Below are positions 2,980 to 51,456 of a DNA stretch of 64,000 nt, in pieces; within the stretch, counting starts at the first letter, position 1; every line of letters starts with the position of its first letter. A program made the position numbers and the translations under genes. Below the pieces are notes generated by a model. That model did no database searches. It was given only the letters and a program-made list of their open reading frames with translations, and was not told where the DNA came from. Origin of the DNA: Elusimicrobiota bacterium (lineage in GTDB: Bacteria; Elusimicrobiota; UBA5214; JBBAAG01). The DNA lies in contig JBBAAG010000006.1 of assembly GCA_041658405.1 (NCBI GenBank), positions 6,004-70,003 of the forward strand. Reading direction: 5' to 3'.

Positions 2980-3597
2980 GTGCAAGGGAATAATGTTGAA
3001 CCAAAAGATACCGGTAATCGTGTGTGTAGCGAAAACGAGTTGATAACGAGCGCCATAAACGGCGACCGTAACGCGTTTGGTAAGATTGTAGAGTTGTACG
3101 CAGTACAAGTCTATAACCTTAGTTATCGTTTGACGGGTAACGAACCTGATGCGAAGGATCTTTCGCAGGAAGTGTTTTGCAGGGCATTAAAACTGATTGG
3201 CGAGTTTAAACAGGAAAGCAGTATCTCTACATGGCTGCACAGGATCGCTGTTAATTTGTGGTTGAATAATGTCAAGCACGGGAACATTGTTAAATATGAA
3301 TCTTTAGATAAGTCAGTGGTTAATGAAGAAGATAATGAAATAAAACGCGAATTTATGAGTAATGAACTTGGGCCGGAAGAAAAAGTTGTGGTAAAAGAGT
3401 TTAACCGGTTGTTGCAGGATGCGTTAAACGAGTTGACGCCGGAACAACGTGTAGCGTTTGTGTTGAAGTATATCGAAGGAAAATCGTTGAAGGAAATCGC
3501 AAAGATCTGTAATTGCAGCGTGTCGTTGGTAGGGGTGAGGTTGGCGCGCGCGTTGGTAACGCTGAACGGCAAGTTGAAGCAGTATTATAAAACGTGA
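2980..3597 (+). CDS. ECF-family RNA polymerase sigma-70 factor
   Basis: GTG start with an AGGAG RBS. It carries a region 2 (YRLTGNEPDAKDLSQEVFCRA) and a region 4 HTH (LTPEQRVAFVLKYIEGKSLKEIAKICNCSVSLVGVRLARA). 205 aa. Confidence 0.85.
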   Translation: MQGNNVEPKDTGNRVCSENELITSAINGDRNAFGKIVELYAVQVYNLSYRLTGNEPDAKDLSQEVFCRALKLIGEFKQESSISTWLHRIAVNLWLNNVKHGNIVKYESLDKSVVNEEDNEIKREFMSNELGPEEKVVVKEFNRLLQDALNELTPEQRVAFVLKYIEGKSLKEIAKICNCSVSLVGVRLARALVTLNGKLKQYYKT

Positions 3598-3609: not shown

Positions 3610-4545
3610 ATGTTTATGATGAAATGCAGTGAAGTAAAGGATTTGTTGGTACTGTACGACGAGAAAGAGTTGGATGCTGAGAAACAACAACAGGTAGCGC
3701 AGCATTTGAATGAGTGTAAAGACTGTGCCGCGCTTTTAGCCGGGATGCATAATGTGACACAGTTATACAATTCTATGGGTAAAGAATCCTTACCGCCAAA
3801 CTTTGTGCGGGATGTTCAAAACAAAATCGATGTTGGCGTCGTTGTGCCAAACAAACCTGTTTCCATGATATACCGCCCGCAAACGTACGTGTATTCTGCA
3901 TTGTTGTTGATATGCCTCGCTTGCTTGTATTTTAATGTGAAACCCAAAACACAAATGCAGGCACAGGTACAACAAACGATAACGGCAGTTGTAATAAATG
4001 ATAGTAATCCTAACAAAACAAACGTCACATCTCCTGTAATAAAAGATGTTGCGAAAAAGACAGAAACCGTGGTTTTTCATCCTACGTCAACCGTAACAGA
4101 TGACACGCAAAAAATGGTTATCAACAAAACCGTTACCGTGTTCGCCAAACTACCTGAGGAACGCCAATCGACGTTGCTACGCGGGAAGTCGCAGAATGTT
4201 GATGTTAAACACGTTGTGAAACAATGGCAGGATGTGCGTAGCGGGATAAAAGAAAAAAAGGTGCTGATTATCAAAACCGAACAGGAATGGCGGGCGTTGT
4301 GGCAACAGCATAACGGTAATAACGCTTCGACGCTTCCTTTGCCGGATATAGATTTTGCGAAAAACATTGTGTTCGCAGCGTTTATGGGCGAGCAGCCCAC
4401 CGCGGGGTTTGGGATACAGATAAAAAATATTGAAGAGACTAACACTAAATATTATCTTGATATTGAAGAAGCCACGCCGGGAAGTGCAGCGACGCAAACG
4501 GGACAAAAGATACAACCGTATCATATTGTGGTTATAGATAAATAG
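3610..4545 (+). CDS. membrane anti-sigma factor (zinc-finger N-domain, single TM, PrcB-like C-terminal domain)
   Basis: It starts 12 nt after the sigma gene. HLNECKDCAALLAG is an H-x3-C-x2-C anti-sigma zinc motif. TM helix YVYSALLLICLACLYFNV. The C-terminal ~100 aa (EQEWRALWQQHNGN...YHIVVIDK) resembles the PrcB C-terminal domain. Confidence 0.65.
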   Translation: MFMMKCSEVKDLLVLYDEKELDAEKQQQVAQHLNECKDCAALLAGMHNVTQLYNSMGKESLPPNFVRDVQNKIDVGVVVPNKPVSMIYRPQTYVYSALLLICLACLYFNVKPKTQMQAQVQQTITAVVINDSNPNKTNVTSPVIKDVAKKTETVVFHPTSTVTDDTQKMVINKTVTVFAKLPEERQSTLLRGKSQNVDVKHVVKQWQDVRSGIKEKKVLIIKTEQEWRALWQQHNGNNASTLPLPDIDFAKNIVFAAFMGEQPTAGFGIQIKNIEETNTKYYLDIEEATPGSAATQTGQKIQPYHIVVIDK

Positions 4546-4555
4546 TATAGGTTGC

Positions 4556-7500
4556 ATGGATAGGAAATATATGAAGTTCAGAAGAAAACTGTTGTTGTTA
4601 ATATTAATAACCCTTATTCCGGTAAATGTGTACTCGCTGGGGTCTACGCCGACGGTGACTATTGACAGTATCGTCGGGTCAAGCGGGACGATACGGGTAA
4701 ACTATACCGCGTACGATACGGACGGGGACAGCGTTACTACTACCGAATGGCAATACAGCCGAGATAACGTTAATTGGAACGATATTTCGGAAGATACTAT
4801 CCGTAACAACTATTATAAAACACCAGGAACGTCGTATGTTAATTGGGTGAGTACATTATTCCTTTCCGGTTTCTATGATGATTCTATGTGGTTCAGGATG
4901 AAAGTAGTGGACAATTCTGGGAATGGAGATATCAATAATTTTGTTTATTCGCTAAATAAAGTTCCAATCCCTTCATATGGACATAATGCTGTAGTAAATA
5001 AAAACAGGATTTATCTCATAGGGGGGAATTCTAATAGTGGACATTTGGATACCGTTTATAATACAACAATTAATTCTGATGGAAACATCGGCGAATGGTT
5101 TCTTTCCGCAAACAGGATACCTCAAGAATCTTGTCTGCATTCTAGTACTTTATATAACAATTATCTTTATGTGACAGGAGGGGAACCCTACGGAAATGAT
5201 AATGTTTTTTATACAAAAATACACGATGATGGCAGTATTAGTAGTTTTCAAACGTCAGCGCATAAAATTCCCACAGGAGTAATGGGACATTCTTGTGTAG
5301 CATATAACGGATATTTATATATTATCGGTGGACTTGATTCTAATGTACATGCTGTTGATAAAATATATTATGCAAAAATAAACAATTCTAATGGTAGTAT
5401 ACAAGATTTTCAAACATCAACTATCACATTGCCAATTCCTTTGTATTACCTTTCTGGTACTGTGTATAATGGGTATGTATATATAACTGGTGGAAAAAAT
5501 AATTCTGTTAATTCATTTAAGGTCTACTATGCAAGATTGAGTGATGACGGAAGTATCGGTTCTTTTAATGAAGCAAATTCTATGGCTATAGAGCAACATT
5601 CAAGTGTGATTTACAACGATTGTCTTTATCTCGTAGGTGGAGGCAGAATATATTACGCAAAAATAAATAACAGTGGTGTCTTAAACACATTTGCCATTAT
5701 CACAAGCACCATCTCACTGCAACAAGCATTCTGTATAGCGAAAAATAACAAAATTTATGTTGTAGGAGGTTACATTAGTAGTAATTTATATCCCAGTGAT
5801 ACAGTATATTATGCAAATATACAAAGTGGGTTGGTGACCCAGGATTATTCAAATACTTTTTCATTGTTAATAAACAACAATGATTCTCCCATAGTGACAT
5901 TAAATGCATCGACGGGAATACAAACTACTTCGGATATAAATATTTCTTATACAATAACTGATACGTTTGCCGATAACTTATCGTTATACTGCGAATACTC
6001 TACCGACGGTGGAGCGAATTGGATCCGCGCGACGGTTAACGGGACAACGAGTTACTACAATGTTGTCAGCGCGTCGGGAACGGTAATATGGAAGTCGCAA
6101 GTCGACCTCGGGGTAAGCGTCTCTACGTTCACGGTAAGGTTCAGGATAACGCCGTCAGATTCACAGATTTTAGGTACGCCGGTAAGTACATCCGACTTCG
6201 GCGTTGACAACCGTCACAACCCGATTTTAACAATTTCCGGAATCAGTGATAATATGAAAGAACCCAGCGGGGTGATAAAAATCAGTTATACCTCTGTCGA
6301 TCCCGATGGTAACAATTTACAAACCTCCAATTGGCAATACAGCCGTGATAACGTAACCTGGTATGACATATCAAGTTCTGCAATAACTAATAATGAATTG
6401 AAACCTCTTGGGGCGTCGTATATTTTGTGGAACACCCAGTCAGGGACGAACAATCTTAACCTCGTAGAAGACGCAAGTGTATGGTACAGAATGAAACTTA
6501 CCGACGGCGTATTTTATTCGTGTTACCAAACCACGGGACCGTTTGCGGTGGACAACTACGTCAAACCGGTCATAACGTTATCGAATATATCCGGTGAGGT
6601 TACTAGTAATACAATTACGTTTAATTACACAATCACTGCGGCACCCGACGAAAACTTATCCTTGCTTTGCGAATATTCAGCTAACAACGGGACTGACTGG
6701 TCTCCCGCTATAATCAATAGTTCGACTTACAACATTACCAGCGGTCAGTTTAGCGGTAATCTTGTTTGGAACTGTGTGGGAAATATTTCAAGCGGGACTG
6801 ATAACAGCAACATTTACTTCCGTGTTACACCCTATGGCCGTGCGTTAGGATTGGCGACGACGTCGAATCTTATTCACGTGGACTACAATACCCCGCCCGC
6901 GGTTGTCGTGAATGACATATTTTCGGTGGTAAGAGACACAGTGGCGATTACTTATACTTTATCTGATACGAATAATGATGTGTTAAGCATAGTTTGTCAA
7001 TACTCTACCAACGGTGGGAGTACATGGAAACCCGCGACTGTGGTGGGGAGTACTGCAAATATTGATAGTAGCCATTATTCCGGTTCGCTGGTTTGGTACT
7101 CAAATTTGGATGAGCCGAATATCAACGTAACTACTACGAAGTTTAAAATTGTACCCTACGACAACGACCAAGGGACAGCGGATGATACTATTAATTTTCA
7201 AGTTGAAAACGTTGCTGAACCACCAAGTGTTACTATTACAAGCGTCGAGGGTACTAATGGAACAATAAAAATTAATTATACCGTTTCCGACCCCGATCCA
7301 GGGGAACAGGTTACTACTACTAAGTGGCAGTATAGCACCACTAGCAGCACCGGTCCCTGGTATGATATTGATTCAGAATATATTAGTAATAATTTTTATA
7401 AGCCAGTTGGGACATCGTATATTCAATGGAATAGTTTGGTTGCACTTAATGGTGTTTATGACGATAGTATCTGGTTTAAAATGAAAGTAGTGGATAATTC

Positions 7501-10165
7501 TGGAAATGGTAGTATAGGGAATTTTAGTACTTCTACAAATGTTATTCCGGTAGGTGTAAATGGCCATTCTAGTGTTGTTTACAATGGTTATTTATATATT
7601 ACAGCGGGTAATATGATATATTGTGCAAATCTCAATACTGATGGAAATGTGGGGAGTTTTATTACTACATCATCAACTAGTATGCCCACGAGTTACTCTC
7701 ATCATTCCAGTGTTGTTTATAATGGTTATCTATACATTACAGCTCGTAATACGGTATATTATGCGAAACTTAATACGGAGGGTAGTATAGGAAGTTTTAG
7801 CACTTCACCAAACCTTATCCCGACATCGTTGGGGTACCATTCCAGTGTGGTTAATAACGGATATCTGTATATTACAGGTGGAAACAATGGTAGTATTCTA
7901 AATACGATATATTATGCAAAAATTAACTGTGACGGTAGTATTGCTTCATTTCAGACGAATAGTAATACCATTCCCAGTCATTTGGATAGACATTCCAGTG
8001 TGGTTTATAACGGATATTTATATATTACAGGAGGTAATGGCGGCATAAGTTTGCTTAATACGGTATATTATGCGAAACTCAATGCCGATGGCAGTGTGGA
8101 AAGTTTTAATATTTCCTCAAACACTATTCCTACTTCGTTGTTTGCACATTCCAGTGTAGTGAATAACGGTTATTTATATGTTACCGGAGGATGTATTGGC
8201 GTTCCTACCAACTTAAACACCGTATATCTTGCGAAACTCAATGCTGATGGTAGTATAGGAAGTTTTAGTACTTTACCAAACACTATCCCGACTTCGTTGT
8301 ATGACCATTCCAGTGTAGTGAATAACGGCTATTTATATATTACCGGAGGGAGGAATAGTGAGCATGATGGCGTCGGTTTCAACACCATGTATTATTCCGC
8401 GTTTACTAATCTAACTAGTGGTTATGTGATTTCTTCATCGTTTCCAATCGATAATACTGACGAAACTTCGCCAACTGTACCGAGTTATATTTGGGATGGG
8501 ACAGGTGCTGATGTTGATACAACGCTATCACTTACGACATTATCCGCAAACTGGGGTACGTCGTACGACCCGGAGTCAGGAATTTCAAAATATTGGTATG
8601 CTATTGGTTTGACACAGGGAACGACAGATTTTGTCGAATGGACTGATGTTGGTCTTTCAACCTATGTCGTGAAAACAGAATTAACATTATCGTTAGGTAC
8701 AACATACTATTTCAGCGTCAAATCTGAAAACGGTTCTGGATTACAAAGTACTGCAACTGTTTCCGATGGAATATTAATAATCGGTGATATCACTCAACCA
8801 ACTAGACCAAGTTACATTTGGGACGGATTGGGAAACGACATTGATTTGTCAGTATCAACCACCACATTATCCGCGAACTGGGGTACGTCGTCCGATCCAG
8901 AGTCGGGAATCGCAAAATATTGGTACGCTATCGGTACAACACCAGGAACGACGGACTATCTCGACTGGACTGACATCGGATTGTCAACATATGTTATCAG
9001 AACAGGTTTAAACTTGAATTTTGGAACGACATATTATTTCACCGTAAAATCAGAGAACGGCGCGGGGTTGCAAAGCTCATTCCGTGTTTCCGATGGTATA
9101 TGTGTTATTTTAATTTCTACTGGCAGCAATCCGGTTGACCTTACTCCTCCGGCAACGCCCTTAATAACGTCAACCACACATCCAGAACACGATACCACGT
9201 ACGCAAACAGTTTCGCGAGGTTTACTTTTACAATGCCCAAAAGTGATGAGTCCGGGATTAGAGGGTATTATTATTTGTTAAACGGCAACAGTTCTACCTC
9301 GGTTATTCCGGAAACCGGGATTTTTGTTACGTGGGACACGATAACGTTGTCAAACTTAACCGACGGCGTGTTGTATCTCCACGCGATAGCGATCGATAAC
9401 GCGGGTAACTGGTCTTCTGCAAACACTGCGCATTACAAGTTTACCGTACGGCTTACGATTGACCCTGCGCAGGATACTGCGTTGGTATACAGCGACGGGT
9501 TAAAGATTGACGTTCCCGCGGGTACTGTGGCTGGTACCACGAAACTCGAGGTTACGCGTCCGGATATAATCAACCTCCCCCGGGTAATTAATGATCCTCA
9601 GGTTAAAGACACGAATATTGTAGTAGAAATCAAGTTTACCGACGGAACGACGGAGTTAGCAAAAGATATTACCATAAGTATTCCGTATACCGCTAACGAC
9701 ATTCCCGGGCTGGACGAGAAAAACCTTCGCGTGTTTTATTGGCATGAAACCAAGAACGGGTGGGTGTTGATCCCGGACTCTCACGTGGATACTGCTGCGA
9801 AAAACGTTATTGCGCGGGTGAACCATTTGTCGTTATTCAAAGTTATGGAATATATTCAGGGTGAGAATACTATAGAAAACTTGTCGAACTATCCTAACCC
9901 GTTCAAAGCGGGCAATGATGCGACAAAAATACGGTATATCCTCCAGAACGATTCCAACGTAAAAATCCGTATCTACGACTTAATCGGCGACTGTGTATGG
10001 GAACAAAACGTTGTTGCTGGGACTGTCGGGTCAAGCCTCGCGGGGCCGAACGAAGTGTACTGGGACGGTAGAAACAGCGCAGGCGATATTGTGGATATCG
10101 GGTCGTATATCTGTGTTGTTGAAGCAAGCGGCGTAGTGTTGAAGACGAGGATTGGAGTGAAATAG
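4556..10165 (+). CDS. 1869-aa secreted multidomain protein: signal peptide, Ig-like modules, two Kelch-type beta-propellers, three Fn3-like domains (two in tandem), C-terminal T9SS-type/FlgD-Ig-like sorting domain
   Basis: It starts 10 nt after the anti-sigma gene. Signal peptide KLLLLILITLIPVNVYS. Six or seven Kelch-like blades (HSSVVYNGYLYITGG...YYAKLNADGSIGSF) occur twice. Three Fn3-like modules follow. The C-terminus reads NYPNPFKAG...KIRIYDLIGDCVWEQ...GVK, typical of T9SS CTDs. Confidence 0.85.
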   Translation: MDRKYMKFRRKLLLLILITLIPVNVYSLGSTPTVTIDSIVGSSGTIRVNYTAYDTDGDSVTTTEWQYSRDNVNWNDISEDTIRNNYYKTPGTSYVNWVSTLFLSGFYDDSMWFRMKVVDNSGNGDINNFVYSLNKVPIPSYGHNAVVNKNRIYLIGGNSNSGHLDTVYNTTINSDGNIGEWFLSANRIPQESCLHSSTLYNNYLYVTGGEPYGNDNVFYTKIHDDGSISSFQTSAHKIPTGVMGHSCVAYNGYLYIIGGLDSNVHAVDKIYYAKINNSNGSIQDFQTSTITLPIPLYYLSGTVYNGYVYITGGKNNSVNSFKVYYARLSDDGSIGSFNEANSMAIEQHSSVIYNDCLYLVGGGRIYYAKINNSGVLNTFAIITSTISLQQAFCIAKNNKIYVVGGYISSNLYPSDTVYYANIQSGLVTQDYSNTFSLLINNNDSPIVTLNASTGIQTTSDINISYTITDTFADNLSLYCEYSTDGGANWIRATVNGTTSYYNVVSASGTVIWKSQVDLGVSVSTFTVRFRITPSDSQILGTPVSTSDFGVDNRHNPILTISGISDNMKEPSGVIKISYTSVDPDGNNLQTSNWQYSRDNVTWYDISSSAITNNELKPLGASYILWNTQSGTNNLNLVEDASVWYRMKLTDGVFYSCYQTTGPFAVDNYVKPVITLSNISGEVTSNTITFNYTITAAPDENLSLLCEYSANNGTDWSPAIINSSTYNITSGQFSGNLVWNCVGNISSGTDNSNIYFRVTPYGRALGLATTSNLIHVDYNTPPAVVVNDIFSVVRDTVAITYTLSDTNNDVLSIVCQYSTNGGSTWKPATVVGSTANIDSSHYSGSLVWYSNLDEPNINVTTTKFKIVPYDNDQGTADDTINFQVENVAEPPSVTITSVEGTNGTIKINYTVSDPDPGEQVTTTKWQYSTTSSTGPWYDIDSEYISNNFYKPVGTSYIQWNSLVALNGVYDDSIWFKMKVVDNSGNGSIGNFSTSTNVIPVGVNGHSSVVYNGYLYITAGNMIYCANLNTDGNVGSFITTSSTSMPTSYSHHSSVVYNGYLYITARNTVYYAKLNTEGSIGSFSTSPNLIPTSLGYHSSVVNNGYLYITGGNNGSILNTIYYAKINCDGSIASFQTNSNTIPSHLDRHSSVVYNGYLYITGGNGGISLLNTVYYAKLNADGSVESFNISSNTIPTSLFAHSSVVNNGYLYVTGGCIGVPTNLNTVYLAKLNADGSIGSFSTLPNTIPTSLYDHSSVVNNGYLYITGGRNSEHDGVGFNTMYYSAFTNLTSGYVISSSFPIDNTDETSPTVPSYIWDGTGADVDTTLSLTTLSANWGTSYDPESGISKYWYAIGLTQGTTDFVEWTDVGLSTYVVKTELTLSLGTTYYFSVKSENGSGLQSTATVSDGILIIGDITQPTRPSYIWDGLGNDIDLSVSTTTLSANWGTSSDPESGIAKYWYAIGTTPGTTDYLDWTDIGLSTYVIRTGLNLNFGTTYYFTVKSENGAGLQSSFRVSDGICVILISTGSNPVDLTPPATPLITSTTHPEHDTTYANSFARFTFTMPKSDESGIRGYYYLLNGNSSTSVIPETGIFVTWDTITLSNLTDGVLYLHAIAIDNAGNWSSANTAHYKFTVRLTIDPAQDTALVYSDGLKIDVPAGTVAGTTKLEVTRPDIINLPRVINDPQVKDTNIVVEIKFTDGTTELAKDITISIPYTANDIPGLDEKNLRVFYWHETKNGWVLIPDSHVDTAAKNVIARVNHLSLFKVMEYIQGENTIENLSNYPNPFKAGNDATKIRYILQNDSNVKIRIYDLIGDCVWEQNVVAGTVGSSLAGPNEVYWDGRNSAGDIVDIGSYICVVEASGVVLKTRIGVK
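4943..5850 (+). repeat. Kelch-type beta-propeller repeat array 1 (coding repeats)
   Basis: Repeated YLIGG/YVTGG/YIIGG...YYAKIN..GSI..F blades about 45-50 aa apart, preceded by an Ig-like module (WQYSRDNVNW). Confidence 0.6.
7561..8400 (+). repeat. Kelch-type beta-propeller repeat array 2 (6 blades of about 144-156 nt)
   Basis: Six near-identical units HSSVV(Y/N)NGYLYITGG...YYAKLN(A/T)DGSIGSF..N.IPTSL. The Ig-like module at 7221-7540 is about 60% identical to the one at 4636-4945, which indicates an internal duplication of module plus propeller. Confidence 0.7.
8471..9124 (+). repeat. tandem Fn3-like domain duplication (2 x 327 nt)
   Basis: PTVPSYIWDGTGADVDT...YYFSVKSENGSGLQSTATVSDGILI and PTRPSYIWDGLGNDIDL...YYFTVKSENGAGLQSSFRVSDGICV are roughly 70% identical. 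Confidence 0.7.
9878..10165 (+). other. T9SS-type C-terminal sorting domain (Por_Secre_tail/FlgD-Ig-like) of the 1869-aa protein
   Basis: NLSNYPNPFKAGNDATKIRYILQNDSNVKIRIYDLIGDCVWEQ...GSYICVVEASGVVLKTRIGVK follows the YPNPFN...V.L.IYD..G..V...G.Y CTD pattern. Confidence 0.6.
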
Positions 10166-10190: not shown

Positions 10191-12200
10191 ATGAAAAAAG
10201 TATTGGCGTGGCTATTATTAATATCGGTTTGTGTTACGTGGTCTTCCGCGGCGGAGAATACCGGCGGGTTGCCCGGATACTTTCTTAACCTCGGTATTGG
10301 TACGCGCGTGTTGGGCATGGGCCGCGCGGGGACTGCTGTAGCGGATGATATCAGCGCGTTGTACTGGAACCCCGCAGGGTTGCGACAGATGCGGAATCTA
10401 GAGCTTATGTTTAACCACAACGAGTTGTTTGAGTTGACAAAGTATGAATGTATTGGAGTGGCAGTGCCGACGAAGTATAACTGGTCTTTTGGGTTAGGGC
10501 TAGTCCAAATGTTTTCCCCGGGTACGGTAAAACGTGACTATTTTAATACCGTTACCGGCGAGGTCAGCGACGTTAACAGCGCGTTGTTGTTTTCAAACGC
10601 GTTTTCTGTAACCGATAAATTACAGTTAGGTATTGGGACAAAGGTTGTGAACAAAAAGTTTGACGATATCGACTCCACATGGCTGGGGTTCGATTTTGGC
10701 GCGTTGTATACACTCACGGAAATTGTGAGGGTGGGGTTGGACATACAAAACATTTTTGTTTCAAGTTTCAGGCGTTACGATACCGACTATAAAGCGCCGA
10801 TGATGACTAGGGTTGGGGTGTCGTCCAGTTTGTTGGATAACGCTCTTATACTCACCGCCGACCTTGAACTTACCTCGTCGCAGTATTTGAAAATATATTG
10901 TGGCGCAGAATACCGAGTGTGGAACATTATGATGTTGCGTTTGGGGTACGATAGCAACAACCTTACAGCCGGGTTTGGCGTTGTGGTAAACAACTTCTTG
11001 TTTGACTACGCAATGCTCAGCCATACGTTAGGGTTAAGCCATCGCGCAGCGGTGACGTACCGGTTTGGAAAATACAAAAACATTACTCTCCCGGCCAAAG
11101 TTGATATTATCGTTCCGAAGAAAAAGATTGATTACGCAGTTACGGTTAACACAATGAAAGAAATACCTGTTGCGGTTTACCATTTGTTTGACGCGAAAAA
11201 TGTTGCTGTAACAAGTATCAATATCACTAATAGTACTAAGAAAGAAGTTAAGTTTAGCGTGTCAGCGCGTATAGATATCAAGAAAAGTGATGAGTTCTGG
11301 GAAGTAGTTGTCCCGCCCGGGGAAACAAAAGAACTGAATATTGTTCCATCTCTCACGCGAGAGGAAGTAAGAGCGGTCGAAGTTGTTCCTACTCTTAGCA
11401 AAATATCGGTGGAAGTGTATAAACTAAATGCTAAAGGTAAACCCGCGCTTTTGTTGCATAACATGTTACCCGTTACATTGTTGCCGTATGACCAGTTTGT
11501 CCAGGAAATTGTTGATGCGAAAAACGTGAAGTACGATATGATTGACACGCTTGCTACGTGGGTGACGTATAACGACAGGAGTTTGACGGACGTAATATCT
11601 AAAGCAAGCGAAAAAGGCGCGGCGAGTGTTCCACCGATAAAAATTGTGGGCGTCCAATCCCCTCATTTGTTTACCCGTCCTACTCCGGATTCAAGGTCAG
11701 TAGAAGAAAAGGATCAGGATTATTTAACGCAGGTAAAACTGATTTACGATACGTTAAAAGATAATTACGGGATGACATATATTAACCAGCCGATAGCGTA
11801 TGGTTTCTCACAACGCATAAAGTTGCCGTCTGAAGTGTTGAAGAATAAAGGCAACTGCGTAGAATTAGCAGTGCTGTTCTCGAGCTTGCTGGAAAGTATC
11901 GAGCTGGACCCCATAATATTGTTGTCAATCGAAGACGGCCACGCGGTGGTCGGCTGGCGAGTGGCTGGTGAAGAAAAAGATGTTTATCATTTGATGGAGA
12001 CCAGTTTGTTCGGCGAAGATTTTGATAAAGTGTTGAATCAAGGCAATGCGTTGATCGAACAGTACGGATTACAGCCAGAGTTTGCCGGCAAAATATCCTT
12101 TAACGCTAACGGCGTTTACAAAAAAGACGGCGATGTGTTGGTTTTAGATATTAAAAAAATCCATTCCTTTATTCCACCTAGTCCAAATATTTTGAGATGA
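10191..12200 (+). CDS. secreted fusion protein: N-terminal PorV/PorQ-like (FadL-like) outer-membrane beta-barrel, Ig-like linkers, C-terminal transglutaminase-like Cys-His domain
   Basis: Signal peptide MKKVLAWLLLISVCVTWSSA. GTRVLGMGRAGTAVADDISALYWNPAGL matches the PorV/PorQ family N-terminal signature. The C-terminus KGNCVELAVLFSSLLESIELDPIILLSIEDGHAVVGWRV is a transglutaminase-core Cys...His arrangement. Confidence 0.6.
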   Translation: MKKVLAWLLLISVCVTWSSAAENTGGLPGYFLNLGIGTRVLGMGRAGTAVADDISALYWNPAGLRQMRNLELMFNHNELFELTKYECIGVAVPTKYNWSFGLGLVQMFSPGTVKRDYFNTVTGEVSDVNSALLFSNAFSVTDKLQLGIGTKVVNKKFDDIDSTWLGFDFGALYTLTEIVRVGLDIQNIFVSSFRRYDTDYKAPMMTRVGVSSSLLDNALILTADLELTSSQYLKIYCGAEYRVWNIMMLRLGYDSNNLTAGFGVVVNNFLFDYAMLSHTLGLSHRAAVTYRFGKYKNITLPAKVDIIVPKKKIDYAVTVNTMKEIPVAVYHLFDAKNVAVTSINITNSTKKEVKFSVSARIDIKKSDEFWEVVVPPGETKELNIVPSLTREEVRAVEVVPTLSKISVEVYKLNAKGKPALLLHNMLPVTLLPYDQFVQEIVDAKNVKYDMIDTLATWVTYNDRSLTDVISKASEKGAASVPPIKIVGVQSPHLFTRPTPDSRSVEEKDQDYLTQVKLIYDTLKDNYGMTYINQPIAYGFSQRIKLPSEVLKNKGNCVELAVLFSSLLESIELDPIILLSIEDGHAVVGWRVAGEEKDVYHLMETSLFGEDFDKVLNQGNALIEQYGLQPEFAGKISFNANGVYKKDGDVLVLDIKKIHSFIPPSPNILR

Positions 12201-12277: not shown

Positions 12278-14392
12278 ATGATATTGATACAAACAATATT
12301 GACTGCTGCAGTATTATTATTGACTACAATCTCAGGTTTTGCTGAATCAAAAGATTTTACGTTTATCCAGCTTACTGACGGGCATATGGAAAAAGGCGCG
12401 GTGTACCTATCGTCGACTATTGCCGAGATTAACAAGCTAACACCCGCGCCGGAGTTCGCGGTATTCACCGGCGATTTCGCGAATTACGGAACCGTACGTG
12501 AGTTCGATAAGTATGCGCAGATAATGGATGGACTTAACTATAAGTACTACACGGTTCTTGGTAATCACGAGACACAGAATAACGATGTCGGGTACTATAC
12601 GTACCAGCAACGTTACGGCAGTCCATACCATTCGTTCGACCACAACGGTATCCATTTTGTGTTACTCAACACCGGAGTGTCTTCAACCGGTGCAGGGTTT
12701 ATCACAGCTGCGCAGCTGGAGTGGTTGCGTTCTGACCTACAAAAAATAGGAACACAAATGCCGGTATTCCTGTTCTCCCACCACCTGCCAACGGATAGAG
12801 GTATTGGCAATAACGTGGAGGTTTATCAGGTGATTAAAGATTATAATATCCGCGCGTGGTTCACCGGGCATTTACATGCAACAAGGCATTTTATATGGAA
12901 TGGTATTCACGTGTTGGTAACCAAAGACACGCTTACCTGCGGCTATCGTATCATTCAGGTAAAAGGGGATAAGGTGTTCACTTATAACAAAGAAGTCGAT
13001 AAGCCTGAATCACCGGATAAAGTGGTGATTGGCCTGTATACAAAAAAATCTGCGCCCGAGTACGAACTCATATCTCCGGGGTATCAGGTTGATACTGCAA
13101 CGTCCATTACTTGTGCGGTTAAGTTTTCAACATTAACACTTACCGCAGTGAAAGCGTCCCTTCGCGCGAAGGTGGACCGCGATACAACATACACGCTTGT
13201 GTACTCTACGATAACACAGTTGTGGCAACAAAACATTCCAGTGATTCAGGGGAATCATACGTTGATAATACAGATGGTACTCACTGAGAAAACAACGTTT
13301 TATTCCGGCAACGTAGTGTCTACCGGCACAATAGGGTATATTTGGGAAAAATCTTATAACTTTACCGTCGGAGATAACGCAGTAGCGTGGAAGTACGCAA
13401 CTGGTGATATGGTGATATCAGCGCCGGTGGTTGAAAATGGAAATGTTTACTGCGGTTCAGCAGATGGAACAATGTATTGTTTATCTGCGAGTACCGGCGG
13501 AGTGAAGTGGAAATACGCAACTAACGGCATAATCTCCGGTGATCCTGTCATTTATAAGGACAAACTTATATTTGGTTCTCATGACGGTAATGTTTATGTG
13601 TTGGATAAAACCGCGGGGGCGTTGTACTGGAAATACACGAGTACTGTGCCGGTATATTCCACGCCGGTAGTAGCTGAGTCAAAGGATGGGGATTTTAATA
13701 ACACGCGGATCGTTGTTGCGCATGGAAACGGATTAATAGCAGGGCTTTCCTTTACCGACGGGACGGTATTGTGGCGATACAATACAAAATATGCGGTATC
13801 AATTTGCCCGGCATATAACCGTGAAAACGGTACCGTTTATTTCGGCGGGTGGGATGGGTATACCCGCGGGATTTCTGTTTCCACAGGCGGTGTGGTATGG
13901 TCCCGTCGTATTTATCGCGGAATGTGGGGCGCACCGGGGTCGAACTCGCCGGTGATTGACGGGGATAAACTGTACCTCAACGATATCGGTAAAGTGTACG
14001 CGTTAACCTTGTCCTCCGGCAGTACGGTATGGAGTTCGACTGTTACACATAGCACGTCAAAACCTGTGATTTATGGAGATAAAGTTATCGTATGTTCTTC
14101 TGACAATAAAGTACAGGCGTATGATAAAAGTACTGGCGCGTTGTTATGGCGGGTACAAGCTAAGCATGGGATCCACCGCGCACAACCGGTGATTTACAAC
14201 GATTATCTTGTGATATCCACATCCTGGGGTACGGTACATATTATGAATCCCGATACCGGCAAAATTGTGTATAATTACCAATTATCTGATTATCAGGTAA
14301 CATCAACACCGTGTATAATGTCAGGTAAGCTTTATATTGGCTCTTCTGACAAAAACGTGTATGCGGTTGAGCTTGATAGAATTATGAAGTAA
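12278..14392 (+). CDS. secreted calcineurin-like metallophosphoesterase fused to a PQQ/BamB-like beta-propeller
   Basis: Signal peptide. MPE motifs are LTDGHM, FTGDFANYG, LGNHE and GHLHATRH. The C-terminal PQQ-type repeats include AWKYATGDMVISAPVV, CLSASTGGVKWKY and VLDKTAGALYWKY. 704 aa. Confidence 0.75.
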   Translation: MILIQTILTAAVLLLTTISGFAESKDFTFIQLTDGHMEKGAVYLSSTIAEINKLTPAPEFAVFTGDFANYGTVREFDKYAQIMDGLNYKYYTVLGNHETQNNDVGYYTYQQRYGSPYHSFDHNGIHFVLLNTGVSSTGAGFITAAQLEWLRSDLQKIGTQMPVFLFSHHLPTDRGIGNNVEVYQVIKDYNIRAWFTGHLHATRHFIWNGIHVLVTKDTLTCGYRIIQVKGDKVFTYNKEVDKPESPDKVVIGLYTKKSAPEYELISPGYQVDTATSITCAVKFSTLTLTAVKASLRAKVDRDTTYTLVYSTITQLWQQNIPVIQGNHTLIIQMVLTEKTTFYSGNVVSTGTIGYIWEKSYNFTVGDNAVAWKYATGDMVISAPVVENGNVYCGSADGTMYCLSASTGGVKWKYATNGIISGDPVIYKDKLIFGSHDGNVYVLDKTAGALYWKYTSTVPVYSTPVVAESKDGDFNNTRIVVAHGNGLIAGLSFTDGTVLWRYNTKYAVSICPAYNRENGTVYFGGWDGYTRGISVSTGGVVWSRRIYRGMWGAPGSNSPVIDGDKLYLNDIGKVYALTLSSGSTVWSSTVTHSTSKPVIYGDKVIVCSSDNKVQAYDKSTGALLWRVQAKHGIHRAQPVIYNDYLVISTSWGTVHIMNPDTGKIVYNYQLSDYQVTSTPCIMSGKLYIGSSDKNVYAVELDRIMK

Positions 14393-15203: not shown

Positions 15204-17144
15204 ATGACGTTCAGGTCTATAATTCTTGCATTAGTATTTGTTGTAATATCCGCATTGTGGGTATGGAAGTTTGAGTTAATGCTTTTGTCCTGCAACCTTA
15301 CAGAAGCCATCCCACCGATACCTGCGCTTGCCGGGTTGATATTTTTGGTAGTTCTTTACCCGCTGCTAAAATATCTGGGCGTAAAAAACCTGCTTACCCG
15401 CGGTGAAATTATGGTAGTGTTTATCTTCAACGTAATTGCAACGTTGATGTTCAGCATAGGCGTATTCCAGGCATTCCTGCCATACACCAGCGTGTTGTAT
15501 TACCACGATACTGTACTTAACAAATATGCTGATTTCAGGCAATATGTCCCGTCCTGGTTTGGCCCGCGGGATCCGGAAGTTATCCGCGGATTTTGGGAAG
15601 GTACGCCGGACGGCGCGGTACCCTGGGCACACTGGATTAAACCGTTGGCAGTATATCTCGGCTTCTTTTTATTGTACTGGTGGATCGCTACCTGTGTGTG
15701 GACAGTAATGAGAAAGCAGTGGGCGGAAAATGAGAGGTTGACATTTCCGTTGCTGAGTATTCCTCTGAGTTTGAGCGAAGAAGCGGCAGGAGAAAAGTTG
15801 CATGCTAAAGATGAGAAACCGTTTTTGTCCAACCCGTTAATGTGGCTGGGGTTCAGTATTGCCGGGATTAGCCAGGTGTTCAATCTGTTAAACACGATTG
15901 ACCCGTCGTTTCCAGCTTTAGGAAACTATTTCAGGTTCAGCACAATTTTTACGGAGCAGCCGCTGAAGTCAATTTCCGGGGTGATACTCGCGCACCGGCC
16001 GGAAGTCGTGGGGTTAGGATACCTTGTTCCGTCAGAAATATTGTTTTCCACCTGGATTTGTTATTGGATTGAACAGCTGGTAGTAGTGGCTGGCGCAGTG
16101 GTAAAAACTAATGTTCGAGGGTTTCCTCTAATCAATGAACAAGGTATTGGCGCGTACATGGCAATGGTAGTTATTGTGCTGTATGTTGCGCGGAAACATT
16201 TGTATATCGTTTTTAAGAAAGCGTTTACCAGCGCGCCGGAAATCGACGATAAAACTGAACCGTTACCTTACCGCGTAGCAGTTTTTGGCGGCCTGCTCGG
16301 GTTTATGGTGTTGATAGGTTTTTGTATGATCAGCGGGATGTCGCCATGGCTTGCGATCTTTTTCTTTGGTGTACTATTAAGTTTTGTGATGGTTTACGGC
16401 CGTATCCGCGCAGAGACAGGGATTCCGTCTGTTTGGACCTTGCCTATCTCACAAATAAAGAGCGCAACTTACCATATATGGGGGACGGATACGTTGACAT
16501 CGCTGGGCGGGTCGCTCTCAAGCCTAGCAATATTATCGTCATTTGGATTTATGATGAACGGCGGGTTTTTTAATCAAAGTACGGTGTATCAGCTTGAAAG
16601 TTTTCAATTAGGCGATAAAACCGGTGTTTCCCGCCGGCATATTGTGTGGCTAGGCCTCGGCGCAGTATTCACCGGGTTTATCCTGGGTGCAATAATGTAC
16701 CTCTCAACATATTACCAGTACGGGTTGAACAACCTAACAACGGGAACACGGACAACGTATAGCTTGCAGATATGGAATGAAGTTACTACCGCGGTGAGTA
16801 CGCCGCCAATTGCGTATTTTGCGCAAAAAGTTGCGTATGCCGCAGGGTTTGTGATTACGGGAATAATGTTTGTGATCCGCCAATTCGTATGGACAAAAAT
16901 GCCGTTGAACCCTATCGGATACCTCATTGCAACTAACGGCGCAGCTACGCATGTATGGTGGCCGTTTTTTGTCGCATGGGTGTGTAAAGGTATAATATTC
17001 AGGGTCGGCGGTGTGAAATTGTATAAAACATTGATCCCGACATTTTTGGGGTTGGTAATCGGGCAGTTTTTCTTTGCTGGAATATTCTGGGGATTTATTC
17101 ACTTATTCTTTCCGCAGTTGAAGTTCCATATATGGTTTACGTAA
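15204..17144 (+). CDS. large polytopic integral membrane protein of unknown function (>=12 TM)
   Basis: 646 aa, highly hydrophobic throughout, with no recognisable catalytic motif. It sits where a periplasmic adaptor would be expected, upstream of the OMF and RND genes. Confidence 0.6.
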   Translation: MTFRSIILALVFVVISALWVWKFELMLLSCNLTEAIPPIPALAGLIFLVVLYPLLKYLGVKNLLTRGEIMVVFIFNVIATLMFSIGVFQAFLPYTSVLYYHDTVLNKYADFRQYVPSWFGPRDPEVIRGFWEGTPDGAVPWAHWIKPLAVYLGFFLLYWWIATCVWTVMRKQWAENERLTFPLLSIPLSLSEEAAGEKLHAKDEKPFLSNPLMWLGFSIAGISQVFNLLNTIDPSFPALGNYFRFSTIFTEQPLKSISGVILAHRPEVVGLGYLVPSEILFSTWICYWIEQLVVVAGAVVKTNVRGFPLINEQGIGAYMAMVVIVLYVARKHLYIVFKKAFTSAPEIDDKTEPLPYRVAVFGGLLGFMVLIGFCMISGMSPWLAIFFFGVLLSFVMVYGRIRAETGIPSVWTLPISQIKSATYHIWGTDTLTSLGGSLSSLAILSSFGFMMNGGFFNQSTVYQLESFQLGDKTGVSRRHIVWLGLGAVFTGFILGAIMYLSTYYQYGLNNLTTGTRTTYSLQIWNEVTTAVSTPPIAYFAQKVAYAAGFVITGIMFVIRQFVWTKMPLNPIGYLIATNGAATHVWWPFFVAWVCKGIIFRVGGVKLYKTLIPTFLGLVIGQFFFAGIFWGFIHLFFPQLKFHIWFT

Positions 17145-17175
17145 AGTGTTGATGTAAACTATTTGTTATATATCG

Positions 17176-18444: not shown

Positions 18445-18463
18445 AAAGGAGTAATAACCAATA

Positions 18464-50508: not shown

Positions 50509-50534
50509 TCTTCTAATTCCCTCTATCCCTTGCC

Positions 50535-51413: not shown

Positions 51414-51418
51414 TTTAT

Positions 51419-51425
51419 CTCCTCC
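51419..51425 (-). promoter_or_regulatory. Shine-Dalgarno (GGAGGAG) of the DUF3494 gene
   Basis: ctcctcc on the + strand, 5-7 nt upstream of the ATG (51411-51413 complement). Confidence 0.5.
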
Positions 51426-51456
51426 GATAATTATCATATTTCATCTATTACAGCTA

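What the first reader, a model, noticed from the sequence alone, without database searches (positions are those of the whole stretch)
10191..12200. PorV/PorQ-like outer-membrane barrel fused to a transglutaminase-like Cys-His domain, immediately downstream of a CTD cargo gene
The N-terminal 270 aa carry the PorV/PorQ-family signature (GTRVLGMGRAGTAVADDISALYWNPAGL) and FadL-like barrel strands. After Ig-like linkers the C-terminus has a transglutaminase-core arrangement (GNCVELAVLFSSLLES...GHAVVGWRV...DVYHLMETS). In T9SS, PorV shuttles CTD cargo to the PorU Cys-protease sortase. A PorV-like barrel that carries its own papain-like Cys-His domain next to the only CTD cargo in the window suggests a self-contained cargo processing or attachment device. 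An alternative reading is a surface protein-crosslinking function.
Basis: partly seen in the sequence, partly recalled or inferred. Interest (0 to 1): 0.7.

Follow-up and report, generated by a model that had tools for sequence, protein, structure and literature searches.

The report
PorV-like barrel carrying transglutaminase-fold enzyme
An outer-membrane barrel protein of an uncultured Elusimicrobiota bacterium, related to the cargo-holding protein PorV of type IX secretion, carries a built-in cysteine enzyme and is always encoded right after one giant protein that bears the matching secretion tag, which suggests a private anchor-and-processing device for that one protein.

Summary
Window 10191-12200 (+) encodes a 669-aa Sec-exported protein. 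It has a compact 14-stranded PorV/PorQ-family barrel (NCBIfam PorV_fam 94.8 bits, cutoff 90; best PDB fold match PorV), a ~20-aa linker, and a beta-sandwich plus transglutaminase-fold module with Cys556-His584-Glu603.

The module belongs to an unnamed, widespread family (1,157 clusters). Cys and His are kept in at least 147 of 150 representatives. Its only curated match is the N-terminus of NCBIfam 'anti-phage protein ProA'.

The gene ends a conserved Elusimicrobiota operon: ECF sigma, anti-sigma (zf-HC2/PrcB_C), a giant repeat protein ending in a T9SS type-A-like CTD, then this fusion. Of 19 PorV-like barrel genes examined, 17 have a CTD gene immediately upstream. Barrels with TPR or other tails show the same pairing. 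When the module sits on a small barrel, CTD genes lie next to it.

A cargo-dedicated PorV-like anchor is therefore well supported. The enzyme's job (CTD processing or release, or anti-sigma cleavage) is inferred. Barrel topology places the enzyme in the periplasm, not on the surface like PorU, so the 'self-contained sortase' reading is only partly supported. This is a new variant of a known kind, of moderate interest.

The parts
2980..3597 (+). ECF-type sigma-70 factor, first gene of the conserved cassette
   Evidence: Pfam Sigma70_r2 and Sigma70_r4_2. Orthologues sit at the same position in L001, L002, L005b and L012.
3610..4545 (+). Membrane anti-sigma factor: cytoplasmic zf-HC2, one TM helix (aa 92-110), periplasmic part ending in a PrcB_C domain
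   Evidence: Pfam zf-HC2 (aa 6-40) and PrcB_C (aa 254-309). TM helix from hydropathy. Conserved next to the sigma gene in L001, L002, L005b and L012.
4556..10165 (+). Giant (1869 aa) Sec-signal-bearing repeat protein with Kelch propellers, Ig-like and BNR repeats: the 'cargo'
   Evidence: Pfam Kelch families, Reelin_subrepeat-B, FlgD_ig. The body varies between cassettes (Kelch, NHL, PQQ, fn3, or no Pfam); only the C-terminal domain is constant.
9881..10162 (+). C-terminal domain of the cargo (aa 1776-1869), T9SS type-A-like CTD / FlgD_ig-like
   Evidence: TIGR04183 22.7 bits (cutoff 23). It also matches the CTD parts of the PorU and PorZ models. All 7 aligned CTDs hit TIGR04183, best E 6.5e-10. 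It is the only CTD in the window at E<=1.
10191..12200 (+). The finding: barrel-enzyme fusion gene (669 aa plus stop)
   Evidence: It is 100% identical to a protein NCBI names 'PorV/PorQ family protein [Elusimicrobiota bacterium]'.
10191..10250 (+). Sec signal peptide (aa 1-20, MKKVLAWLLLISVCVTWSSA|AEN)
   Evidence: Read from the sequence. The cleavage site is inferred from the A-x-A-like SSA motif.
10281..11066 (+). PorV/PorQ-family outer-membrane barrel (aa 31-292): N-terminal FadL/PorV-type segment with the NPAGL motif, then 14 strands with short loops
   Evidence: NCBIfam NF033709 94.8>90. AF2 strands at aa 71-291. Foldseek top hit PorV 8gl6_F, E 2e-10.
11067..11132 (+). Variable Lys/Pro-rich linker (aa 293-314)
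   Evidence: pLDDT below 50 for aa 295-312. Poorly conserved and variable in length in alignment A1.
11133..11483 (+). Beta-sandwich (Ig-like) domain of the module (aa 315-431)
11484..12197 (+). Transglutaminase-fold alpha/beta domain (aa 432-669)
11856..11858 (+). Codon of Cys556 (TGC), the predicted nucleophile and the only Cys of the module
   Evidence: Conserved in 147/150. All 24 closest representatives keep Q-N-C-[ED]-H-[ED]. Codon checked.
11940..11942 (+). Codon of His584 (CAC), predicted general base
   Evidence: Conserved in 148/150. Codon checked.
11997..11999 (+). Codon of Glu603 (GAG), predicted third triad member
   Evidence: Glu in 106 and Asp in 14 of 141. Lost together with Cys and His in orthologue P0007.

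Best explanation
This is the last gene of a four-gene Elusimicrobiota operon: ECF sigma factor, membrane anti-sigma factor, giant CTD-tagged repeat protein, barrel-enzyme fusion.

**Shown**
- The product is a Sec-exported outer-membrane protein with a compact 14-stranded PorV/PorQ-family barrel.
- The barrel's C-terminus continues, through a flexible ~20-residue tether, into a beta-sandwich plus transglutaminase-fold domain.
- That domain has a conserved Gln541...Asn555-Cys556-x-Glu558...His584...Glu603 set.
- A CTD-tagged gene lies immediately upstream in every cassette.

**Inferred**
1. The barrel is the private receptor and anchor for the C-terminal domain of the giant protein encoded just upstream. 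This would resemble how PorV holds type-A CTD cargo and PorU, how PorQ holds PorZ, and how PorP/SprF-like barrels hold their cognate type-B cargo.
2. The tethered domain hangs on the periplasmic face of the outer membrane.
3. It is a protein-directed cysteine peptidase or transamidase that processes the partner, clipping or releasing it or fixing it covalently. The logic is closest to the periplasmic transglutaminase-like protease LapG, which controls retention of the giant adhesin LapA.
4. The ECF sigma/anti-sigma pair switches the whole device on in response to an envelope signal.
For: - **Catalytic set.** Cys 147/150, His 148/150, Glu/Asp 120/141, Gln541 148/149, Asp/Glu558 150/150. Orthologue P0007 has lost Cys, His and Glu together, as expected for residues that act as one unit. 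Cys556 is the only Cys of the module.
- **Synteny, barrel+module cassettes.** A CTD gene lies directly upstream in 10/10 distinct cassettes: window, L001, L002, L004, L005a, L005b, L006, L007, L010, L013b.
- **Synteny, barrels with other tails.** The same holds for 7 PorV-like barrels with other tails or cut by a contig end: L015, L016, L020, L023, L024, L065, L073.
- **Synteny, exceptions.** The two exceptions (L011, L093) are bare barrels without a tail.
- **Module on small barrels.** These also sit with sigma, anti-sigma and CTD genes (L012) or with CTD genes (L013).
- **Variable cargo bodies.** Only the CTD is constant.
- **CTD similarity.** The CTDs match the CTD portions of the PorU and PorZ models (best E 4e-12 and 8.9e-13), the two T9SS proteins that stay bound to PorV and PorQ. 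Roles of PorU, PorZ, PorV and PorQ are from PMC5562754 and PMC8545088.
- **CTD is not a general tag here.** Other secreted-looking proteins in the window carry no CTD.
- **Tight operon.** Gaps of 12, 10 and 25 bp.
- **Precedents.** Cognate cargo/shuttle gene pairs: PMC12618676. LapG: PMC3032545.
Against: - There is no direct evidence for CTD-barrel binding.
- The barrel is about 130 aa shorter than PorV, with very short loops. It scores far below the PorV and PorQ equivalog cutoffs.
- If the module is periplasmic and the CTD ends up outside, where they meet is unclear.
- The module is exchangeable for TPR, Ig or FlgD_ig-like tails on other CTD-linked barrels, so it is not essential for cargo handling in general.
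- The same module is common in cytoplasmic receiver, AAA, TIR-like and Zn-finger proteins and in ProA, so it is not CTD-specific.
- Two of 11 close orthologues lack the Cys.
- In the reverse test, only 6 of 80 metagenomic CTD loci have a barrel gene right downstream.
Confidence: 0.4

Rival explanations
1. Envelope signalling device. The barrel with its periplasmic tail acts like a cell-surface-signalling transducer of the FecA/FecR/FecI type. The tethered cysteine protease is the site-1 protease, or the binding partner, of the anti-sigma factor's periplasmic PrcB_C domain. Engagement or loss of the giant protein would then turn on the ECF sigma factor.
For: - Sigma and anti-sigma genes lie directly upstream in the window, L001, L002 and L005b, and immediately before the module gene in L012.
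- The anti-sigma has one TM helix and a ~200-aa periplasmic part with PrcB_C. PrcB_C is a domain named after a subunit of the Treponema dentilisin protease complex (PMC8167434).
- The predicted periplasmic location of the module fits.
- The one cassette whose module has lost Cys, His and Glu (L006) has no sigma/anti-sigma pair upstream.
Against: - The module family is mostly found without any sigma or anti-sigma.
- CTD-linked barrels exist with non-enzymatic tails.
- There is no evidence for a module-PrcB_C contact.
- This does not explain why a CTD-tagged gene is the constant neighbour.
- It is compatible with, rather than exclusive of, the best explanation.
Confidence: 0.2
2. One reading: a surface-exposed, self-contained sortase. 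The C-terminal module reaches the cell surface, for example by threading the linker through the barrel as in inverse autotransporters. There it cleaves the CTD and attaches the cargo covalently to a surface lipid or glycan, combining the roles of PorV and PorU in one polypeptide.
For: - The transglutaminase-fold Cys-His-Glu chemistry can do acyl transfer as well as hydrolysis (established for the superfamily).
- The cargo is strictly adjacent.
- No C25-type PorU is in the window.
- An N-terminal barrel followed by an Ig-like domain recalls intimin and invasin. The intimin barrel is among the generic barrel hits.
Against: - The barrel has an even strand count, and its long hairpin and loop sit at extracellular positions under the canonical topology. 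The C-terminus is therefore periplasmic.
- The N-terminal FadL/PorV-type segment normally occupies the lumen.
- Sister barrels carry TPR and SLH tails, which are typically periplasmic.
- The module also sits behind small 8-strand-like barrels and CsgG/LpoB-type lipoprotein domains.
- There is no homology to PorU.
Confidence: 0.12
3. A generic outer-membrane anchor with an envelope-maintenance enzyme. The barrel only tethers the module to the outer membrane. The module acts on peptidoglycan or other envelope proteins, for example tethering the outer membrane to the wall. The neighbouring CTD gene is co-regulated but is not its substrate.
For: - The barrel type is interchangeable: PorV-like, small barrel, or CsgG/LpoB lipoprotein.
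- Sister barrels carry SLH or TPR tails typical of wall or periplasm contacts.
- The module is predicted to be periplasmic.
Against: - The same module is abundant in cytoplasmic proteins, which argues for protein substrates rather than wall substrates.
- The CTD adjacency of 17/19 is hard to explain by co-regulation alone.
Confidence: 0.1
4. A defence-related function. The module is the effector head shared with the NCBIfam 'anti-phage protein ProA', and the cassette is an envelope-located anti-phage or conflict system.
For: - NF058533 ProA N-terminal positions ~10-310 match this protein (E 3e-14) and every family member tested (E 1e-13 to 1e-29).
- Fusion partners such as AAA/STAND-like, TIR-like and receiver domains are typical of conflict systems.
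Against: - Scores are far below the ProA cutoff (51.5 vs 1500), and only the head domain is shared.
- There is no PADLOC hit.
- Neighbours are housekeeping or envelope genes, not a defence island.
- No publication on ProA could be found.
Confidence: 0.05

Closest known systems
PorV (T9SS outer-membrane shuttle; PDB 8gl6_F, 6h3i_F) and PorQ
   Same: - Same family by the curated NCBIfam model (94.8>90).
- Same N-terminal G-x-G...WNPAGL signature.
- Best structural match of the barrel is PorV.
- Genetic link to a protein with a type-A-like CTD.
- PorV holds CTD cargo and PorU; PorQ holds PorZ (PMC5562754, PMC8545088).
   Different: - Not an equivalog: PorV 19.3/250, PorQ 64.9/220, PorV2 71.4/325 bits.
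- About 130 aa shorter, with very short loops.
- Carries a 355-aa enzymatic tail.
- One barrel gene per cargo gene, instead of one PorV for all cargo.
- Found in Elusimicrobiota, with no T9SS core genes seen nearby.
Cognate PorP/SprF-like shuttle or anchor proteins of type-B CTD cargo (e.g. SprB/SprF)
   Same: Same genetic logic: a large CTD-tagged surface protein gene is followed by the gene of its own outer-membrane barrel partner, which is needed for secretion and anchoring (PMC12618676; Gorasia 2022, PMC9143113, title seen).
   Different: - Different barrel family (PorP/SprF vs PorV/PorQ).
- Different CTD type: here type-A-like (TIGR04183 7/7 vs TIGR04131 1/7).
- PorP/SprF proteins carry no enzyme domain.
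LapG (bacterial transglutaminase-like cysteine proteinase) with the giant adhesin LapA
   Same: - Working in the periplasm on a giant, outer-membrane-retained repeat protein to control its surface retention (PMC3032545, PMC4359373).
   Different: - No sequence-level membership.
- LapG is soluble and controlled by the c-di-GMP receptor LapD.
- LapA is a T1SS substrate cut at its N-terminus.
- Here the enzyme is fused to a barrel, control is by an ECF sigma/anti-sigma pair, and the constant element of the partner is a C-terminal CTD.
PorU, the T9SS sortase
   Same: Proposed functional analogy only: a cysteine enzyme held by a PorV-type barrel that acts on CTDs (PMC8545088).
   Different: - PorU has a C25/gingipain-type fold, is a separate protein and is surface-exposed.
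- There is no homology to the module. Only the cargo CTDs resemble PorU's own CTD.
N-terminal domain of NCBIfam NF058533 'anti-phage protein ProA'
   Same: It is the only curated model that covers the beta-sandwich plus transglutaminase-fold module: model positions 11-238 match aa 339-592, E 3e-14.
   Different: ProA is a ~1900-aa protein. Only its head is shared (51.5 bits vs cutoff 1500). No barrel and no CTD partner are known for it. I could not trace its primary literature.
Cell-surface signalling triads (FecA-FecR-FecI type)
   Same: An outer-membrane barrel with a periplasmic extension is encoded together with a single-pass anti-sigma factor and an ECF sigma factor. The comparison rests on established knowledge of the Fec system.
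   Different: - The barrel is not a TonB-dependent transducer.
- The extension is C-terminal and enzymatic.
- A giant CTD protein is part of the operon.

Membership tests
PorV/PorQ family (NCBIfam NF033709) | Score at or above the curated family cutoff | tested here: met
   94.8 bits vs cutoff 90, aa 31-292 over model positions 6-326/326. NCBI names the identical protein 'PorV/PorQ family protein'.
PorV/PorQ family (NCBIfam NF033709) | FadL-like 14-stranded outer-membrane barrel with an N-terminal conserved segment | tested here: met
   AF2 model has strands at aa 71-291. Foldseek top hit is PorV 8gl6_F (E 2e-10), then FadL and TodX. The N-terminal 30-53 segment has low confidence.
PorV proper / PorQ proper / PorV2 (equivalogs NF033710, NF033711, NF052325) | Score at or above the equivalog cutoff | tested here: not met
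   19.3 vs 250; 64.9 vs 220; 71.4 vs 325 bits.
Type IX secretion system component | Genome encodes the translocon and motor (SprA/Sov, PorK/L/M/N) and the attachment complex (PorU, PorZ) | not testable with these tools
Literature searches on Elusimicrobia and T9SS returned nothing relevant.
Type IX secretion system component | Physical binding of cargo CTD by the barrel | not testable with these tools
   Indirect only: a CTD gene lies directly upstream of 17/19 PorV-like barrel genes examined.
T9SS type-A sorting domain (TIGR04183), for the upstream gene | Score at or above the domain cutoff at the extreme C-terminus | tested here: inconclusive
   The window CTD scores 22.7 bits vs cutoff 23. 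All 7 cassette CTDs hit the model, best E 6.5e-10. Pfam FlgD_ig gives 21-27 bits vs cutoff 27.
Transglutaminase-like superfamily (Pfam PF01841, clan Peptidase_CA) | Pfam gathering score | tested here: inconclusive
   This protein scores 20.2 vs 23 bits. 14 of 72 relatives hit at E<=0.01, best 4.5e-8; DUF553 hits 10 and Transglut_core2 hits 3.
Transglutaminase-like superfamily (Pfam PF01841, clan Peptidase_CA) | Transglutaminase / papain-like core fold | tested here: met
   [not shown]
Transglutaminase-like superfamily (Pfam PF01841, clan Peptidase_CA) | Conserved Cys (at a helix N-terminus), His (in a strand) and Asp/Glu | tested here: met
   Cys 147/150, His 148/150, Glu/Asp 120/141. The Cys starts helix 556-569 and the His lies in strand 584-591.
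Transglutaminase-like superfamily (Pfam PF01841, clan Peptidase_CA) | Triad residues within catalytic distance in 3D | not testable with these tools
   The tools do not expose the model coordinates.
Anti-phage protein ProA (NCBIfam NF058533) | Full-length match at or above the cutoff | tested here: not met
   51.5 bits vs 1500. Only model positions 11-238 of 1903 match. No PADLOC hit.
BTLCP / LapG family | Sequence membership (family HMM) | tested here: not met
   [not shown]
PorU sortase (NF033707 / Peptidase C25) | C25-type catalytic domain | tested here: not met
   The fusion protein does not hit it. Only the cargo CTDs hit the CTD end of the PorU model.

The most novel reading that the evidence does not exclude
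Elusimicrobiota may use a minimal, T9SS-independent 'one cargo, one barrel' surface-display system. Each CTD-tagged giant protein would be received, and possibly translocated, by its own PorV-family barrel. The fused transglutaminase-fold Cys-His-Glu domain would perform the sortase-like step, removing the CTD and attaching the cargo covalently. This would be a self-contained counterpart, or an evolutionary relative, of the PorV-PorU attachment complex outside the Bacteroidota, switched on by a dedicated ECF sigma/anti-sigma pair.
Probability: 0.15. Interest if true: 0.85.

Novelty: new variant of a known kind. Interest (0 to 1): 0.55.

Why it matters
- **CTD-PorV recognition outside Bacteroidota.** PorV-type barrels and type-A CTDs are regarded as parts of the Bacteroidota type IX secretion system, where one PorV serves all type-A cargo. 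Here, in a distant uncultured phylum, each CTD-tagged giant protein comes with its own PorV-family barrel gene. That barrel carries a tail that is often an enzyme. If the pairing reflects physical CTD-barrel binding, it offers a two-component system in which CTD recognition by a PorV-like barrel can be studied without the ~20-protein T9SS. It also bears on how the T9SS attachment step evolved.
- **A large unnamed enzyme family.** The work defines a family of 1,157 clusters at 50% identity, made of a beta-sandwich plus a transglutaminase-fold Cys-His-Glu module. This module is reused on outer-membrane barrels, on lipoproteins, on cytoplasmic signalling and NTPase proteins, and at the head of the 'anti-phage protein ProA'. 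Its substrate is unknown.
- **A natural substrate candidate.** The barrel-tethered version has a built-in candidate substrate, the neighbouring cargo. That makes the family's biochemistry directly testable.

Tried and rejected
- **PADLOC:** no hit for the fusion protein.
- **Single-sequence search against PDB sequences:** only a weak PorV N-terminal match, E 0.96. The module profile against PDB sequences gave only sub-significant hits at the Cys motif: a transglutaminase-like ciliary protein (E 0.019) and the CPR-C4 protease (E 1.2).
- **Word-indexed homologue searches with the module:** only 5-8 proteins. The exhaustive HMMER search was the informative one.
- **Literature on ProA:** five searches found nothing relevant.
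- **Literature on T9SS in Elusimicrobia:** only incidental co-mentions.
- **Is the module's beta-sandwich a CTD-like domain that could pair with the cargo CTD?** Rejected: hhalign probability 0.7%.
- **Is the CTD a general secretion tag in this genome region?** Rejected for the window: there is only one CTD at E<=1, although several other secreted-looking proteins are present.
- **Is a barrel gene a universal neighbour of such CTDs?** Rejected: only 6 of 80 metagenomic CTD loci have one directly downstream.
- **Promoter and terminator scan of the operon:** counts no different from shuffles, so uninformative.
- **First metagenome scan with alignment A2:** It was repeated with A6.
- **Genome-collection scan:** only 5 loci, all Elusimicrobia except one bare Ignavibacteria barrel.
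Full report
**What is there.** The ORF at 10191-12200 (+) is real and encodes 669 aa. An identical protein exists in public data. It sits on an 89-kb contig of an Elusimicrobiota metagenome-assembled genome, and NCBI names it 'PorV/PorQ family protein'. The protein starts with a typical Sec signal peptide (MKKVLAWLLLISVCVTWSSA|AEN).

**The barrel.**
- Residues 31-292 pass the curated NCBIfam PorV/PorQ family model (94.8 bits, cutoff 90) and Pfam UPF0164 (31.8 vs 21.4).
- They score far below the equivalog cutoffs for PorV (19.3/250), PorQ (64.9/220) and PorV2 (71.4/325).
- An AF2 model of the whole protein (mean pLDDT 71) shows strands from aa 71 to 291, which I count as 14.
- Connections are very short, apart from an extended beta3-beta4 hairpin and one 18-residue loop at aa 187-204.
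- The best solved-structure match is PorV in the substrate-bound T9SS translocon complex (8gl6_F, E 2e-10), followed by FadL and TodX.
- The barrel is therefore a member of the PorV/PorQ family, but not PorV or PorQ proper. It is about 130 aa shorter than PorV.

**The C-terminal module.**
- After a poorly conserved Lys/Pro-rich linker (aa 293-314, pLDDT below 50), residues 315-669 form a two-domain unit.
- Modelled alone with a 20-sequence alignment, this unit reaches pLDDT 92.5 and pTM 0.89.
- It consists of a beta-sandwich (aa 315-431) and an alpha/beta domain.
- Foldseek finds no solved structure at E<=1e-3.
- Pfam Transglut_core is just sub-threshold in this protein (20.2 vs 23). It is hit by 14 of 72 relatives (best E 4.5e-8), with DUF553 hit by 10 and Transglut_core2 by 3.

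**How conserved and how widespread the module is.**
- An exhaustive HMMER search with aa 315-669 against 1.84 billion cluster representatives found 1,157 clusters at E<=1e-3, 284 at E<=1e-10 and 26 at E<=1e-30.
- Among 150 aligned stretches from the best 148 representatives, Cys556 is kept in 147/150 and His584 in 148/150. Position 603 is Glu in 106 and Asp in 14 of 141.
- Gln541 (148/149), Asn555 (137/150) and Asp/Glu558 (150/150) are also conserved.
- All 24 closest representatives keep Q-N-C-[ED]-H-[ED].
- Cys556 opens a helix and His584 lies in a strand, as in transglutaminase cores.
- Cys556 is the only cysteine of the module.
- Among 11 close full-length orthologues, P0011 has Cys to Ser. 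P0007 has lost Cys, His and Glu together. This co-loss is what one expects if the three residues work as one unit. It also shows that the protein keeps a non-catalytic role.
- The only curated model that covers the module is the N-terminal ~300 positions of NCBIfam NF058533 'anti-phage protein ProA'. The match is E 3e-14 here and 1e-13 to 1e-29 in every relative tested, always far below the 1500-bit cutoff.
- I could not find a paper on ProA. PADLOC gives nothing.

**What the module is attached to elsewhere.**
- The closest ~20 clusters have the PorV-like barrel. Where a source names an organism, it is always Elusimicrobia.
- Other close Elusimicrobia paralogues (P0168, P0022, P0025, P0027) have a signal peptide and a ~165-230-aa small beta-barrel-like N-terminus ending in an aromatic residue.
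- More distant members have lipoprotein signal peptides, CsgG/LpoB/FlgO-type outer-membrane lipoprotein domains, or TM anchors.
- Many are plainly cytoplasmic, with receiver, AAA/STAND-like, TIR-like, zinc-finger or coiled-coil N-termini. Named examples come from Anaerolineae and Poribacteria.
- The module is therefore a mobile, protein-directed effector domain, not something specific to CTD handling.

**Genomic context, the strongest result.**
- In the window the gene is the last of four tightly packed genes with gaps of 12, 10 and 25 bp:
  - an ECF sigma factor (2980-3597);
  - an anti-sigma factor with zf-HC2, one TM helix and a periplasmic PrcB_C domain (3610-4545);
  - a 1869-aa Sec-signal-bearing Kelch/Ig repeat protein (4556-10165);
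  - the fusion gene.
- The last ~90 aa of the giant protein match the T9SS type-A CTD model (22.7 vs 23 bits) and FlgD_ig.
- The CTDs of seven such upstream genes align well. All hit TIGR04183 (best E 6.5e-10). They hit the CTD ends of the PorU (7/7, best 4e-12) and PorZ (6/7, 8.9e-13) models even better.
- A profile built from them finds the CTD only in the gene directly upstream of the barrel gene, and nowhere else in the window or in ~170 kb of related loci.
- All 10 distinct barrel+module cassettes show this arrangement: window, L001, L002, L004, two in tandem in L005, L006, L007, L010, and the second gene of L013.
- The cargo bodies differ (Kelch, NHL, or no Pfam). Only the CTD is constant.
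- Sigma and anti-sigma genes are directly upstream wherever the upstream region is visible, except in L006.

**Which part goes with the CTD?**
- Both parts do.
- PorV-like barrel paralogues without the module are also directly preceded by a CTD-tagged large protein. These are P0012 (Ig+TPR tail), P0018, and the barrels of L023 (FlgD_ig/CHU_C-like tail), L024, L065 and L073 (TPR tails).
- Small-barrel+module genes also sit with CTD genes. In L012 they sit directly behind a sigma/anti-sigma pair as well.
- Of 19 PorV-like barrel genes seen, 17 have a CTD gene immediately upstream. The two exceptions are bare barrels without a tail: L011 from Ignavibacteria, and L093.
- The reverse does not hold. 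Of 80 metagenomic loci with related CTDs, only 6 have a barrel gene directly downstream. Most are arrays of CTD proteins without one.
- So the CTD is a broad family, and the private barrel is a lineage-specific arrangement.

**Orientation.**
- With an even strand number, both termini are on the same side.
- If the N-terminus is periplasmic, as in FadL and PorV (established knowledge), the extended beta3-beta4 hairpin and the only long loop fall at extracellular positions, as they should. The C-terminal module then hangs in the periplasm (inference).
- Two observations agree with this. Sister barrels carry TPR or SLH tails. The module also sits behind small barrels and CsgG/LpoB-type lipoprotein domains.
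- I could not test this directly. I give roughly 15% to surface exposure by an inverse-autotransporter-like route.

**Most likely mechanism.**
- I propose that the barrel is the private outer-membrane receptor and anchor for the CTD of the protein encoded upstream.
- There is precedent in PorV holding cargo and PorU, in PorQ holding PorZ (PMC5562754, PMC8545088), and in cognate PorP/SprF-like partners of type-B CTD cargo, which are likewise encoded next to their cargo (PMC12618676).
- I propose that the tethered Cys-His-Glu domain is a periplasm-facing peptidase or transamidase that processes or releases the partner. The logic is closest to LapG acting on the giant adhesin LapA (PMC3032545).
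- The architecture, family placement, residue conservation and synteny are shown. Binding, orientation, substrate and chemistry are inferred.
- The main rival is that the module talks to the anti-sigma factor as a site-1 protease or transducer. This fits the conserved sigma/anti-sigma pair and the PrcB_C domain, which is named after a protease-complex subunit (PMC8167434).
- A pure envelope-maintenance role and a defence role are less likely.

**Known or new?**
- NCBI already annotates the barrel part.
- To my knowledge, four things are not described, and no Pfam entry or searched paper covers them:
  - the fused module as a family;
  - its fusion to PorV-like barrels;
  - the four-gene cassette;
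  - the one-cargo-one-barrel rule in Elusimicrobiota.
- It is best classed as a new variant of a known kind: a PorV/PorQ-family barrel paired with CTD cargo.
- No T9SS core gene lies in the window. Whether the genome has a T9SS could not be tested, and that is the main open point for the more novel reading.

Noticed in passing
window 12278-14392 and 32915-35314: Two paralogous secreted proteins combine a calcineurin-like metallophosphoesterase with a PQQ/BamB-like beta-propeller. The first lies directly downstream of the fusion gene, but this position is not conserved in other cassettes. Relatives of the module are themselves fused to such propellers (P0047, P0082).
   Followed up: partly
L005 10001-11881 and 17246-19261 (same as L009): Elusimicrobia bacterium RIFOXYB2_FULL_48_7 carries two cassettes in tandem. 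The first fusion protein (P0011) has Ser in place of the catalytic Cys; the second (P0020) keeps Cys. The same genome has a third, small-barrel version (P0168).
   Followed up: partly
L006 4049-5977 (P0007): This orthologue has lost Cys, His and Glu together and also lacks the loop at aa 488-505. It still follows a CTD gene, but it has a VWA_3 gene rather than a sigma/anti-sigma pair upstream.
   Followed up: partly
window aa 500-512 of the fusion protein (nt 11688-11726): The loop motif D-x-R-S-[LV]-x-E-K-D-x-D-Y is conserved in the Elusimicrobia subfamily, has low model confidence, and is deleted in the two Cys-less orthologues. It may be a regulatory or substrate-like loop.
   Followed up: no
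L012 10001-16893: The small-barrel+module gene P0168 directly follows a sigma/anti-sigma pair. After it come a 910-aa ORF plus a 139-aa ORF carrying the CTD (probably one frameshifted gene), and then GNA1162-like and CsgG/LpoB-like lipoprotein genes. CsgG/LpoB domains are also fused to the module in 5-6 of 72 relatives.
   Followed up: partly
L023 1837-3213; P0013: Some PorV-like barrels carry their own FlgD_ig/CHU_C-like (CTD-like) domain at the C-terminus, so the barrel and a CTD-type fold are in one polypeptide.
   Followed up: no
L013 367-6548: A module gene (P0022) is followed by two NHL-repeat proteins, each with a CTD, and then by a second barrel+module gene. In other words, two cargo genes are flanked by two module genes.
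   Followed up: partly
window 15204-21568: A DUF6785/DUF6784 multi-pass membrane protein lies directly upstream of an outer-membrane efflux protein and an AcrB-type RND pump. No periplasmic adaptor gene is obvious between them.
   Followed up: no
window 49672-51437 (-): An ice-binding-like (PF11999, E 2.6e-73) secreted protein is encoded next to a small OMP_b-brl outer-membrane protein. This is another possible secreted protein and barrel pair, without a CTD.
   Followed up: no
window 19177-20328 (-): A 383-aa ORF lies antisense inside the AcrB gene. It is almost certainly spurious.
   Followed up: no
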